NCBI RefSeq assembly: GCF_011045215.1
Contig: NZ_CP049201.1
Strand: one strand, 5' to 3'
DNA from: Escherichia coli
Lineage (GTDB): Bacteria; Pseudomonadota; Gammaproteobacteria; Enterobacterales; Enterobacteriaceae
DNA: 64,000 nucleotides
Position numbers: made by a program
In this document: piece by piece, positions 54,301 through 57,300 of the stretch
How the letters are laid out: every line of letters begins with the position of its first letter
Position numbering within the stretch: the first letter of the stretch is position 1

Positions 54301-57300
54301 TGAGCCCGTTCCTGCGAGCCGAGCAAACACTGGAGGAAGTAGGGGATTGTCTGAACCTGCCTTCCAGTGCAGAAGTTCTGCCGGAGTTAACGCCCTGCGG
54401 CGATGTTGGTCTGGTCAGTGCCTATTTGCAGGCGTTGACCAATGAAGGTGTTGCTTCGGTGTTGGTTATCTCCCACTTACCGTTAGTTGGGTATCTGGTC
54501 GCCGAGTTATGTCCGGGCGAAACGCCGCCTATGTTTACCACCTCGGCCATTGCCAGCGTCACGCTTGATGAAAGCGGAAACGGCACATTCAACTGGCAGA
54601 TGAGCCCGTGTAATCTGAAGATGGCGAAAGCTATCTGATTTGTTTGAAAAAATGCCCGATGTAAGCTGTACATCGGGCATTTGTCTTTTTGCAATAGTAT
54701 AAATTCACTCAAAACCCTTCACGGAGTTGGTATGCTGCGATGATGATTTCATCGCACTCTTTCCTCTGCTTCCCTATTAATTTCTGATGAAATGAGACTA
54801 AGTTGTAATATATTTTTACAAATTATAAAACTAATGGAACAATTAACAGTAAAAAAGAAATGATATTTTTGTGTCTTGATTTAATATTATTTGTGATGCT
54901 TTAATATTATATCTTCAAAAAATACAATTTCAAAATTAATCTAAGATCGTCTTTTTTGTATACATTTCCCATAAATTTTAATTATGTAAAAGATGTTTTC
55001 TAAACATTTTATTTGTTTTTTATAAGTAAACTCTCAAAATTTCACCTTTTTGATTATATGTTAAGTGCTCCTTAATTTACTGTTAAGTAAATATAAATTG
55101 AAACAATAAAGACAAAACATCACCATTCGCCCACACCAAAGAATATCTTCTTATGCGACCTATTTTCTTGTTAGTTAGATCGGATAGCTTATTCAATGGC
55201 TGAGTATAAATAATTGCTATTGACTGAATCAATGTATTGCAATGTTTATATTTTTAATTATTTATGGTTTAAGGACAAATAATGAGTAAGTTTGTAAAAA
55301 CAGCTATTGCTGCAACAATGGTAATGGGTGCGTTCGCTTCTACTTCAACAATCGCCGCTGGCAACAACGGCACAGCTCGTTTTTACGGCACCATTGAAGA
55401 TTCCCCGTGCTCCATCGTTCCTGATGATCACAAACTGGAAGTTGATATGGGTGACATTGGTTCAGGGATCCTGAAAAACAACGGGACTTCTACACCGAAA
55501 GCTTTCCAGATCCATCTGCAAGACTGTGTGTTTGACACCCAGACAACGATGACCACTACCTTCACCGGTAACGCATCTTCTACCAACAGCGGCAATTACT
55601 ACACCATTTACAATACCGATACTGGTGCGGCATTTAACAATGTCAGCCTGGCCATTGGTGACGCTCAGGGAACCTCTTATAAAAGCGGCGCGGGTATCGA
55701 ACAGAAAATCGTAAACGATACGGCGACCAACAAAGGCAAAGCGAAGCAGACGCTGGACTTTAAAGCCTGGCTGGTGGGCGCTGCTGATGCGCCAGATTTA
55801 GGTAATTTTGAAGCCAACACGACCTTCCAGATTACTTATCTCTAAGTGATACCCCCATAGCTTTCGGGCTATGGGGTTTTTAAATGGAATTCGCGCAAAT
55901 TATAATAATTACGGATGGATACGTGTATGCCTGACCATTCTCTTTTCCGACTGCGGGTACTTCCCTGCTGCGTTGCATTGGCAATGTCCGGGAGTTATGT
56001 CAATGCCTGGGCTGAAGATGAAATTCAGTTTGATTCCCGTTTTCTGGAGTTAAAAGGCGACACAAAAATCGATCTGAAGCGATTTTCCAGCCAGGGTTAT
56101 GTCGAGCCTGGGAAATACAATTTACAGGTTCAACTAAATAAACAGCCGCTGACGGAAGAATACGATATTTACTGGTACGCCTCTGAGAACGATGCCAGTA
56201 AAACCTATGCCTGCCTGACGCCTGAACTGGTCGCGCAGTTTGGCTTAAAAGAGGATGTGGCAAAAAACCTGCAATGGATCCACGACGGCAAATGCCTGAA
56301 CCCCGGTCAACTGGAAGGCATTGATATTAAAGCTGACCTGAGTCAGTCAGCGTTAGTCATTTCATTACCCCAGGCTTACCTTGAATATACCGACATCAAC
56401 TGGGATCCCCCTTCACGCTGGGATGACGGTATTTCTGGTTTAATTGCTGACTACAGTATTACCGCTCAGACACGACATGAAGAAAATGGCGGGGATGACA
56501 GCAATGAAATTAGCGGCAACGGGACGGTTGGGGTGAACCTCGGCGCATGGCGTCTGCGAGCCGACTGGCAGACTGATTATTTGCATAGTAAAAGCAATGA
56601 TGACGATGTTATCAACGGTGATGACACGCAAAAAAACTGGGAGTGGAGCCGCTACTACGCCTGGCGAGCCTTACCGTCGCTAAAAGCCAAACTTGGCCTT
56701 GGCGAAGACTACCTGAATTCTGATATTTTCGACGGCTTTAACTACGTGGGTGGCAGTATCAGCACCGACGATCAAATGTTGCCGCCGAATCTGCGCGGCT
56801 ATGCGCCGGATATCTCCGGCGTGGCGCACACCACCGCGAAAGTGACCGTCAGCCAGATGGGCCGCGTGATTTACGAAACTCAGGTCCCGGCGGGGCCGTT
56901 CCGTATCCAGGATCTTGGCGATTCCGTCTCCGGTACGCTGCATATCCGCATTGAAGAGCAGAACGGTCAGGTGCAGGAATATGACATTAACACTGCGTCA
57001 ATGCCGTTCCTGACCCGCCCCGGCCAGGTGCGCTATAAACTGATGATGGGCCGCCCGCAGGAGTGGGGGCACCACGTGGAAGGCGGTTTCTTCTCCGGCG
57101 GCGAAGCTTCCTGGGGGATTGCCAACGGCTGGTCGCTATACGGCGGGGCGCTGGCAGATGAACACTATCAGTCGGCGGCGCTTGGCGTCGGTCGCGATCT
57201 GTCTGTGTTTGGTGCGGTGGCCTTTGATGTCACCCACTCGCATACCCGCCTGGATAAAGAAACTGCCTACGGTAAAGGTTCACTGGACGGTAACTCGTTT

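What the first reader, a model, noticed from the sequence alone, without database searches (positions are those of the whole stretch)
54691..55281. Roughly 600-bp very AT-rich leader upstream of yfcV with short direct repeats
The region between the sixA terminator and yfcV is extremely AT-rich and contains repeated tttaatattat-type motifs, for example around 54880 and 54901. This is the architecture expected for an H-NS-silenced fimbrial promoter with binding sites for an unidentified activator. No invertible-switch inverted repeats or recombinase gene are visible, so any phase variation would need another mechanism.
Basis: partly seen in the sequence, partly recalled or inferred. Interest (0 to 1): 0.3.

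Follow-up and report, generated by a model that had tools for sequence, protein, structure and literature searches.

The report
Silenced AT-rich yfcV fimbrial control region
The AT-rich stretch between sixA and yfcV is the control region of the cryptic Yfc fimbrial operon of E. coli; its K-12 counterpart is already catalogued as an H-NS-bound "promoter island", so it is largely ordinary, and it has no invertible or Pap-type switch.

Summary
Window 54639-55281 is the sixA-yfcV spacer of E. coli. At 25.9% GC it is the most AT-rich stretch of the window (48.4% overall). TTTAATATTAT occurs twice, at 54880 and 54900, but this single repeat pair is close to chance.

The K-12 counterpart of this spacer is published as one of 78 "promoter islands". 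It is bound by H-NS in ChIP and SELEX studies and by RNA polymerase in SELEX. yfcV rises when TosR or BolA is over-produced, or when Rho is inhibited. The H-NS-silenced-promoter reading is therefore supported by orthology, not by data on this allele.

Reading the repeats as activator sites is not supported. An invertible switch is rejected: inverted repeats are at chance level, no recombinase is nearby, and none of about 428 complete genomes with this allele carries the core inverted. A Pap-type Dam/Lrp switch is also rejected.

Two details are new but modest:
- The spacer exists in at least four very divergent allele classes (about 55% identity), starting right after the sixA stop codon.
- Two parts stay conserved: the last ~45 bp before the ATG, and a distal island at 54859-54933. 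The island holds a symmetric -10 core, TATTATA, with bidirectional-promoter geometry. Its stronger arm, TTGAAA-16-TATAAT, points away from yfcV.

The parts
54153..54638 (+). sixA coding sequence (upstream neighbour); about 98% identical across E. coli up to its stop codon
54650..54690 (.). sixA intrinsic terminator: 14-bp stem (54650-54663 / 54669-54682) followed by a T-run. In this allele A/T runs flank both sides, so it could terminate in both directions. The hairpin is kept in all allele classes through compensating changes
   Evidence: (I5)
54691..55281 (+). AT-rich spacer (25.9% GC) upstream of yfcV; highest density of sigma-70-like hexamer pairs in the window
54736..54756 (+). 8-bp hairpin (TGCGATGA / TCATCGCA), terminator-like but degraded in the O157 allele; probably without function
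54859..54933 (.). distal conserved island inside otherwise hypervariable DNA (column conservation 0.72-0.82 against 0.4-0.6 in the flanks)
54880..54890 (+). first copy of TTTAATATTAT; contains TTAATA (54881-54886), the -35-like hexamer of the forward promoter-like site
54900..54910 (+). second copy of TTTAATATTAT; contains the symmetric -10 core
54881..54910 (+). forward promoter-like site TTAATA-18-TATTAT (9 of 12), pointing to yfcV. It would give a 5' UTR of about 365 nt
54906..54933 (-). reverse promoter-like site TTGAAA(54933-54928)-16-TATAAT(54911-54906), 11 of 12, pointing to sixA. It is the best positionally conserved promoter-like site across alleles. Its -10 overlaps the forward -10 so that positions 2 and 6 pair (bidirectional geometry)
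54869..54897 (+). position homologous to the K-12 'constitutive' yfcV promoter TTGAAA-17-TATAGT inferred from RpoD SELEX. Here it reads TTGTGT-17-TGTGAT (7 of 12), i.e. degenerate
54945..54948 (.). distal GATC; absent from the closely related O157 allele
55178..55181 (.). proximal GATC (-104 from the ATG); kept in allele classes 1 and 2 only
55100..55281 (+). proximal conserved segment with blocks CACACCAAAGAATA, TTCAATGGCTG, TATAAA and TTGACTGAATCAATG. Probably the regulated core promoter and its factor sites; no TSS data available
55237..55281 (+). segment almost invariant in every allele and in Pseudocitrobacter. It contains a candidate -10 TATATT (55247-55252) and the Shine-Dalgarno AAGGA (55271-55275)
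55282..55845 (+). yfcV, major fimbrial subunit (Pfam PF00419). It is the first gene of the operon yfcV, usher, chaperone, three subunits, YfcO-family adhesin

Best explanation
The segment is the transcriptional control region of the cryptic Yfc chaperone-usher fimbrial operon. It has four parts:

1. The sixA terminator.
2. A roughly 450-bp distal tract of 18-25% GC, dense in overlapping sigma-70-like hexamers, which RNA polymerase can bind but which H-NS coats and silences (a "promoter island").
3. Inside that tract, a conserved symmetric -10 core (TATTATA, 54905-54911) that can engage polymerase in either orientation. The stronger arm faces sixA and the weaker arm faces yfcV.
4. A conserved proximal ~180 bp carrying a weak, probably activator-dependent core promoter and the ribosome-binding site.

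Expression is expected only when H-NS silencing is relieved by antagonists or when Rho is inhibited.

Shown directly here: composition, hexamer density, the conservation pattern, and the absence of switch features. Shown only for the K-12 orthologue, from the literature: H-NS and RNA polymerase binding, and induction. Inferred: that this divergent allele behaves the same way, and which promoter is actually used.
For: - Composition: lowest GC in the window.
- Hexamer density: 10 promoter-like sites per 600 bp against a window mean of 0.9, and against 4.5 +/- 2.1 in composition-matched shuffles, of which 1.8% reach 10.
- The K-12 spacer is listed as promoter island 2453647-2454135, with H-NS binding credited to Kahramanoglou et al. 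and Oshima et al. (PMC3661553).
- An RpoD SELEX peak with an H-NS flag lies in the yfcV-sixA spacer (PMC3946193), and an RpoS holoenzyme peak lies at 2454170 (PMC5493296).
- yfcV is induced 5.2 log2 by TosR over-production in CFT073 (PMC5956150), by BolA over-production (PMC4337573) and by bicyclomycin (PMC10980228).
- Upstream regions of many other cryptic fimbrial operons are on the same promoter-island list.
- Conserved elements: the proximal block and the distal island.
- The reverse arm is positionally conserved, mean 10.1 of 12 across 8 alleles.
- Its geometry matches published bidirectional promoters, which are enriched in H-NS-silenced DNA (bioRxiv 10.1101/2020.01.31.928960).
Against: - There are no binding or expression data for this allele class, whose distal part is only about 55% identical to K-12.
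- There is no good match to the H-NS high-affinity motif TCGATAAATT: only two 2-mismatch hits, with no enrichment.
- By the same simple scan, the K-12 and class-3 spacers are not enriched in promoter-like sites over shuffles (4 vs 4.2 and 6 vs 4.2). The enrichment here may therefore be allele-specific or partly compositional.
- I found no TSS data, so neither promoter is verified.
- I could not read a direct hns-mutant test of yfc. Korea et al. 2010 is not held, and secondary sources name elf, sfm, yad and yeh explicitly but not yfc.
Confidence: 0.75

Rival explanations
1. The two TTTAATATTAT copies are tandem binding sites, two helical turns apart, for a dedicated and still unidentified activator of yfc.
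For: The pair is exact and 20 bp apart. A repeat of that length within 40 bp occurs in only 3.8% of shuffles. It lies in the conserved distal island. A CsiR ChIP-seq peak was reported in the K-12 spacer at 2454000 (PMC5217608), roughly where this island maps; that mapping rests on my own estimate of K-12 coordinates.
Against: A repeat of 11 nt or more somewhere in the segment occurs in 25% of shuffles. The first copy is not conserved in K-12-type or class-4 alleles, and the second copy is already mutated in the near-identical O157 allele. No regulator gene is in or next to the operon. The copies are explained more simply as -35-like and -10 hexamers.
Confidence: 0.1
2. A fimS-like invertible promoter segment, flipped by recombinases encoded elsewhere, gives phase-variable Yfc expression.
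For: Two inverted-repeat pairs flank sizeable segments: 54628-54639 / 55179-55190 (11 of 12) and 54843-54853 / 55076-55086 (11 of 11).
Against: A perfect inverted repeat of 11 nt or more with a gap of at least 100 nt occurs in 24% of shuffles. Both pairs are lost in the O157 and K-12 alleles. No recombinase lies in the neighbourhood. A query joining the sixA 3' end to the inverted core matched as one piece in 0 of 5425 genomes. All 429 or so genomes with the core had it in the native orientation, with a best single-place coverage of 61%.
Confidence: 0.01
3. A Pap-type epigenetic switch: Lrp and Dam compete at two GATC sites, giving heritable ON and OFF states.
For: Two GATC sites are present (54945, 55178). 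A GATC at -104 is conserved in allele classes 1 and 2.
Against: The sites are 233 bp apart, not the ~102 bp I recall for pap (from my own knowledge). The distal site is absent from the O157 allele, and class-4 alleles have no GATC at all. There is no papI- or papB-like gene in the operon, and no Pfam-detectable remnant in the DNA downstream of the reverse promoter.
Confidence: 0.03
4. The conserved reverse promoter makes a functional product: a ~250-nt RNA ending at the sixA terminator, or a small protein. The AT-rich leader would then really be a divergent gene.
For: The reverse arm is the strongest and best conserved promoter-like site. In this allele the terminator hairpin has a T-run in the reverse direction too, and the hypothetical RNA folds with z = -5.4. 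A 15-codon ORF with a GAGG Shine-Dalgarno lies at 54752-54705 (-) in the window and in O157.
Against: The transcribed stretch is the least conserved part of the spacer, 15-60% identity. The ORF differs at 5 of 15 residues between two close alleles and has no counterpart sequence in other classes. The reverse T-run is specific to class 1. The fold score is driven by the terminator and one non-conserved hairpin. There is no Rfam match and no Pfam match.
Confidence: 0.08

Closest known systems
E. coli K-12 yfcV/sixA 'promoter island' (Panyukov & Ozoline 2013, PMC3661553; RpoD and H-NS genomic SELEX, Shimada et al. 2014, PMC3946193)
   Same: Same locus and same gene order. A long AT-rich spacer of similar length (680 vs 643 bp). 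The proximal ~100 bp are nearly identical and the distal promoter core TATTATA is conserved.
   Different: The distal ~450 bp are only about 55% identical. The forward promoter that the SELEX authors inferred for K-12 (TTGAAA-17-TATAGT) is degenerate here, at 7 of 12. The K-12 usher gene is a pseudogene, whereas it is intact here.
H-NS-silenced promoters of other cryptic chaperone-usher operons (yad, yeh, elf/ycb, sfm, F9)
   Same: AT-rich upstream regions that appear on the same promoter-island list. They are poorly expressed in the laboratory, repressed by H-NS and relieved by antagonists such as SlyA.
   Different: For F9 and others, H-NS binding and promoter mapping were done directly. For yfc only genome-wide data exist, and no antagonist has been shown to act directly.
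Symmetric bidirectional promoters (Warman et al., bioRxiv 10.1101/2020.01.31.928960)
   Same: The -10 hexamers overlap on opposite strands so that positions 2 and 6 pair, with predicted TSSs about 18 bp apart. They sit in H-NS-silenced, horizontally acquired-type DNA.
   Different: No TSS data exist here. The arms are strongly unequal (11 of 12 reverse, 9 of 12 forward), and the reverse arm has no gene to serve.
fimS invertible switch of type 1 fimbriae
   Same: An AT-rich promoter-bearing segment upstream of a major fimbrial subunit gene.
   Different: There are no significant or conserved flanking inverted repeats, no adjacent recombinases, and no inverted copies in about 428 genomes.
pap regulatory region (papI-papB intergenic, Dam/Lrp switch)
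   Same: A control region of several hundred bp with an outward-facing promoter about 380 bp upstream of the fimbrial genes, and two GATC sites in this allele.
   Different: GATC spacing and conservation do not fit, and there are no PapI or PapB homologues or remnants.

Membership tests
Promoter island / H-NS-silenced AT-rich regulatory region | AT-rich tract of at least 300 bp with an unusually high density of overlapping promoter-like sites | tested here: met
   25.9% GC. 10 sites in the spacer against 4.5 +/- 2.1 in shuffles, and 11 times the window mean. The original definition uses PlatProm, which I could not run. The K-12 and class-3 alleles are not enriched by my simple scan.
Promoter island / H-NS-silenced AT-rich regulatory region | H-NS occupancy in vivo or in vitro | not testable with these tools
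   Reported for the K-12 orthologue only (PMC3661553 and PMC3946193). There is no strong H-NS high-affinity motif here.
Promoter island / H-NS-silenced AT-rich regulatory region | RNA polymerase binds but productive transcription is low; de-repressed when silencing is lifted | not testable with these tools
   K-12 has RpoD and RpoS SELEX peaks. yfcV rises with TosR, BolA and bicyclomycin. Nothing is available for this allele.
fimS-type invertible promoter switch | Conserved inverted repeats bounding the promoter segment | tested here: not met
   The best inverted repeats are at chance level (24% of shuffles) and are lost in related alleles.
fimS-type invertible promoter switch | Tyrosine recombinase gene(s) adjacent | tested here: not met
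   The neighbourhood is fadI, fadJ, sixA, yfcV, usher, chaperone, subunits, adhesin, smrB; no recombinase.
fimS-type invertible promoter switch | Both orientations found among sequenced genomes | tested here: not met
   0 of 5425 genomes join sixA to the inverted core.
Pap-type Dam/Lrp methylation switch | Two conserved GATC sites about 102 bp apart within Lrp sites (spacing from my own knowledge) | tested here: not met
   The sites are at -337 and -104 (233 bp apart). The distal one is missing in O157, and class 4 has none. Lrp sites were not assessed.
Pap-type Dam/Lrp methylation switch | PapI and PapB family regulators encoded at the locus | tested here: not met
   None annotated. Pfam finds nothing in three-frame translations downstream of the reverse promoter in three alleles.
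Symmetric bidirectional promoter (Warman type) | -10 hexamers on opposite strands overlapping so that positions 2 and 6 pair | tested here: met
   Forward TATTAT is 54905-54910 and reverse TATAAT is 54911-54906. The rule is stated.
Symmetric bidirectional promoter (Warman type) | Divergent TSSs 7-25 bp apart, detected experimentally | not testable with these tools
   No TSS data could be reached.
Known cis-regulatory RNA or sRNA (Rfam) | Covariance-model match at or near the gathering score | tested here: not met
   There are only two sub-threshold hits, both on the terminator hairpin. The candidate 5' UTR folds with z = 0.10.

The most novel reading that the evidence does not exclude
The conserved symmetric -10 core (TATTATA, 54905-54911) is a functional bidirectional promoter kept by selection across deeply divergent alleles and in Escherichia whittamii. 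Its stronger arm points away from yfcV. RNA polymerase bound in the reverse orientation would exclude the forward orientation. Together with H-NS, this orientation competition would keep Yfc fimbriae off in most cells and make expression noisy or heterogeneous, without DNA inversion or methylation.
Probability: 0.2. Interest if true: 0.45.

Novelty: already known. Interest (0 to 1): 0.2.

Why it matters
yfcV is widely used as a marker gene for uropathogenic E. coli, and Yfc is one of the core-associated fimbriae of the species, yet its natural inducing conditions are unknown. Knowing that the control region is an H-NS-coated promoter island narrows where to look for the real promoter and its regulators. 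The places to look are the two small conserved modules (the distal symmetric promoter core and the proximal ~180 bp), which sit inside DNA that has otherwise been replaced wholesale between lineages. It also predicts that different E. coli lineages regulate Yfc differently. None of this changes current understanding of fimbrial regulation.

Tried and rejected
- **Rfam scan of 54000-56000 at E <= 1:** only sub-threshold hits on the terminator hairpin.
- **H-NS high-affinity motif TCGATAAATT, up to 2 mismatches:** no enrichment; two weak hits in the spacer.
- **Invertible switch:** inverted-repeat statistics and a chimeric inverted query against 5426 complete genomes were both negative.
- **Pap-like switch:** GATC positions across 11 alleles do not fit.
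- **Decayed papI-like or other gene downstream of the reverse promoter:** Pfam at E <= 10 on three frames of three alleles found nothing.
- **Small ORFs:** the minus-strand 15-codon ORFs are not conserved in sequence. By eye, the plus-strand upstream ORFs lose their start codon or frame in other alleles (for example ATG at 55230, ending TAATG on the yfcV start; alignment).
- **Structured 5' UTR:** z = 0.10.
- **TSS data:** Thomason et al. 2015 is not held and neither is Korea et al. 2010. The cap on papers stopped me reading the 2026 NAR paper on bidirectional promoters.
- **FNR and PhoB papers:** these were hits for other yfc genes, not yfcV.

Full report
**What is there.** The window is E. 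coli chromosome; the best match is strain PapM-32-1, 99.8% identical over the spacer. The finding covers the spacer between sixA (54153-54638, +) and yfcV (55282-55845, +). yfcV is the first gene of a seven-gene chaperone-usher operon: major subunit, usher, chaperone, three further subunits and a YfcO-family adhesin. The operon contains no regulator or recombinase. YfcV matches Pfam Fimbrial PF00419.

**Check of the observation.**
- GC is 25.9% for 54691-55281 against 48.4% for the window. This is the lowest value of any 591-bp window, and 200-bp windows fall to 18%.
- TTTAATATTAT occurs exactly twice in the whole window, at 54880 and 54900.
- In dinucleotide-preserving shuffles of the segment, an exact direct repeat of 11 nt or more turns up somewhere in 25% of cases, and within 40 bp in 3.8%.
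- The AT-richness is therefore robust. The "short direct repeats" are one pair of marginal significance.

**Comparison with other genomes.** All but one of 5426 complete E. coli genomes have sixA followed by a fimbrial gene here, but only 428 carry this spacer allele over at least 80% of its length. Alignments show at least four very different allele classes:
- class 1: this window, O157 and O145;
- class 2: K-12 and S51;
- class 3: WCHEC96200 and MDR_56;
- class 4: a shorter form in SF-468 and AGR6128.

Identity to K-12 is about 98% inside sixA. It falls to 40-60% immediately after the stop codon and stays near 55% for about 450 bp. It climbs to 87-95% in the last ~100 bp before the ATG, then is 73-90% inside yfcV. 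Even the close O157 allele drops to 73-80% around 54940-55060.

Two parts resist this turnover:
- A distal island at about 54859-54933.
- The proximal segment, whose last ~45 bp are essentially invariant in every allele, in E. whittamii, in other Escherichia species and in Pseudocitrobacter vendiensis.

**What the literature says about the orthologous K-12 spacer.**
- It is one of the 78 "promoter islands" of Panyukov and Ozoline, at 2453647-2454135. These are AT-rich stretches with very many potential start points. They bind RNA polymerase, give little productive transcription, and are covered by H-NS. For this island, H-NS binding is credited to the Kahramanoglou and Oshima data sets (PMC3661553).
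- Upstream regions of yadN, sfmA, ybgD, elfA, yehD, yraH and fimA are on the same list.
- Genomic SELEX found an RpoD holoenzyme peak with an H-NS site in this spacer. The authors assigned it in silico to TTGAAA-17-TATAGT, assuming transcription toward yfcV (PMC3946193). An RpoS holoenzyme peak is reported at 2454170 (PMC5493296).
- yfcV rises 5.2 log2 when TosR is over-produced in CFT073, rises with BolA over-production, and rises with the Rho inhibitor bicyclomycin.
- Reviews describe yfc as cryptic but functional, and core-associated in E. coli.
- I could not read the primary hns-mutant test: Korea et al. 2010 is not held.

**Does this allele share the properties?**
- With the scan tool's criteria, the spacer holds 10 promoter-like hexamer pairs. 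That is the highest density in the window (mean 0.9 per 600 bp) and more than composition predicts (4.5 +/- 2.1; 1.8% of shuffles reach 10).
- The same simple scan does not show enrichment in the K-12 or class-3 alleles, so I do not lean heavily on this count.
- The H-NS high-affinity motif is not present in good form. Binding would have to rest on general AT-richness and TpA content: 11.3 TpA steps per 100 bp against 5.2 for the window.

**The distal island.**
- The strongest promoter-like site in the spacer is on the minus strand: TTGAAA (54933-54928), 16 nt, TATAAT (54911-54906), 11 of 12.
- The same site, at the same distance from the ATG (-10 hexamer ending at -375 to -386), is the top or near-top site in other alleles:
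  - K-12 and S51: TTGGCA-18-TATAAT;
  - class 3 and E69: TTGTGA-17-TATAAT;
  - O157: TTGAGA-17-TATACT;
  - E. whittamii: TTGTAA-17-TATAAT;
  - Escherichia sp. MOD1-EC7003: CTGGCA-18-TATAAT.
- The hexamers are kept while the spacer between them changes in sequence and length, as expected for a promoter under selection.
- Scored position by position over eight representative alleles, this reverse site averages 10.1 of 12 (minimum 9). The next best site scores 8.75, the best forward site 8.6, and the proximal candidate TATATT 8.1.
- Its -10 overlaps a forward -10 (TATTAT, 54905-54910; -35-like TTAATA at 54881-54886, inside repeat copy 1). Positions 2 and 6 of the two hexamers pair, which predicts starts about 18 bp apart.
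- That is the geometry Warman et al. describe for bidirectional promoters, which they first noticed in H-NS-silenced, horizontally acquired DNA.
- The forward promoter inferred for K-12 from SELEX overlaps this core and is degenerate in the window (TTGTGT-17-TGTGAT). SELEX cannot tell orientation, so the K-12 peak could equally reflect the reverse arm.

**What the reverse arm might serve.** I found nothing:
- The DNA it would transcribe is the least conserved part.
- It has no Pfam-detectable gene remnant and no conserved small ORF.
- The reverse T-run at the terminator is specific to this allele class.

**Switch mechanisms.**
- *Inversion.* The two inverted-repeat pairs that flank large parts of the spacer are no better than chance (24% of shuffles) and are not conserved. 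No recombinase is nearby. A query made of the sixA 3' end joined to the inverted core never matched as one piece. The core was in native orientation in all ~429 genomes that carry it.
- *Pap-type methylation switch.* The GATC sites are at -337 and -104. Only the second is conserved, and only in two allele classes. No PapI or PapB homologue is present.

**Conclusion.** This is an ordinary, already catalogued kind of element: the H-NS-silenced, promoter-rich control region of a cryptic fimbrial operon. The repeats are best read as part of the promoter-like sequence, not as activator sites.

The modest new points are the wholesale allelic replacement of the spacer between lineages and the conserved, reverse-biased symmetric promoter core. 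Whether that core matters for Yfc expression is untested.

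Noticed in passing
window 54639-55100 and loci L002-L008, L015, L019, L021: The sixA-yfcV spacer exists in at least four deeply divergent allele classes within E. coli (about 55% identity). The break falls exactly at the sixA stop codon, and yfcV itself is 73-90% identical to K-12 (lower, 52-90%, against classes 3 and 4). E. whittamii and Escherichia sp. E1V33 share the last ~170 bp before the yfcV start exactly with the O157 member of this allele class; the window itself differs from them at one base. This suggests exchange of this regulatory region between lineages or species.
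   Followed up: partly
L009 3740-4936 (E. coli TUM12368): An IS5-like element (ISKpn26 family) is inserted about 35 bp upstream of the yfcV start codon, inside the otherwise invariant proximal block. It could either destroy the native promoter or activate the operon.
   Followed up: partly
window 46470-48150: This is the second AT-rich zone of the window (GC <= 32%), with the second highest density of promoter-like sites. In PapM-32-1 it holds a 343-aa hypothetical protein next to mlaA. The K-12 yfdF/mlaA spacer is also on the published promoter-island list.
   Followed up: partly
window 54705-54752 (-): A 15-codon ORF (MKSSSQHTNSVKGFE) with a GAGG Shine-Dalgarno lies downstream of the reverse promoter. 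O157 keeps the frame but differs at 5 of 15 residues. K-12-type and class-3 alleles have unrelated 15-codon ORFs at a similar place. Probably chance.
   Followed up: yes
L002 2346-3209 (K-12) versus window 55927-58566: The usher gene yfcU is a pseudogene with an internal stop in K-12, but it is intact in this window's lineage and in O157.
   Followed up: no
window about 44050-44480: A tRNA-Arg gene lies next to the end of a DUF4942-domain gene, which suggests the edge of an integrated element upstream of yfdC.
   Followed up: no
window 54650-54682: The sixA terminator hairpin is kept in all allele classes through compensating changes in the stem. Only some alleles have a good T-run, and the scan tool finds no canonical terminator in K-12 or class 3.
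   Followed up: partly
L012 5220-5420 (-): An uncultured gammaproteobacterial MAG has the same TTAAGGACAAATAATGAG translation start region and a TATTGACTGAA motif upstream of a different fimbrial-type gene. This hints that the proximal promoter module is older than Escherichia.
   Followed up: no
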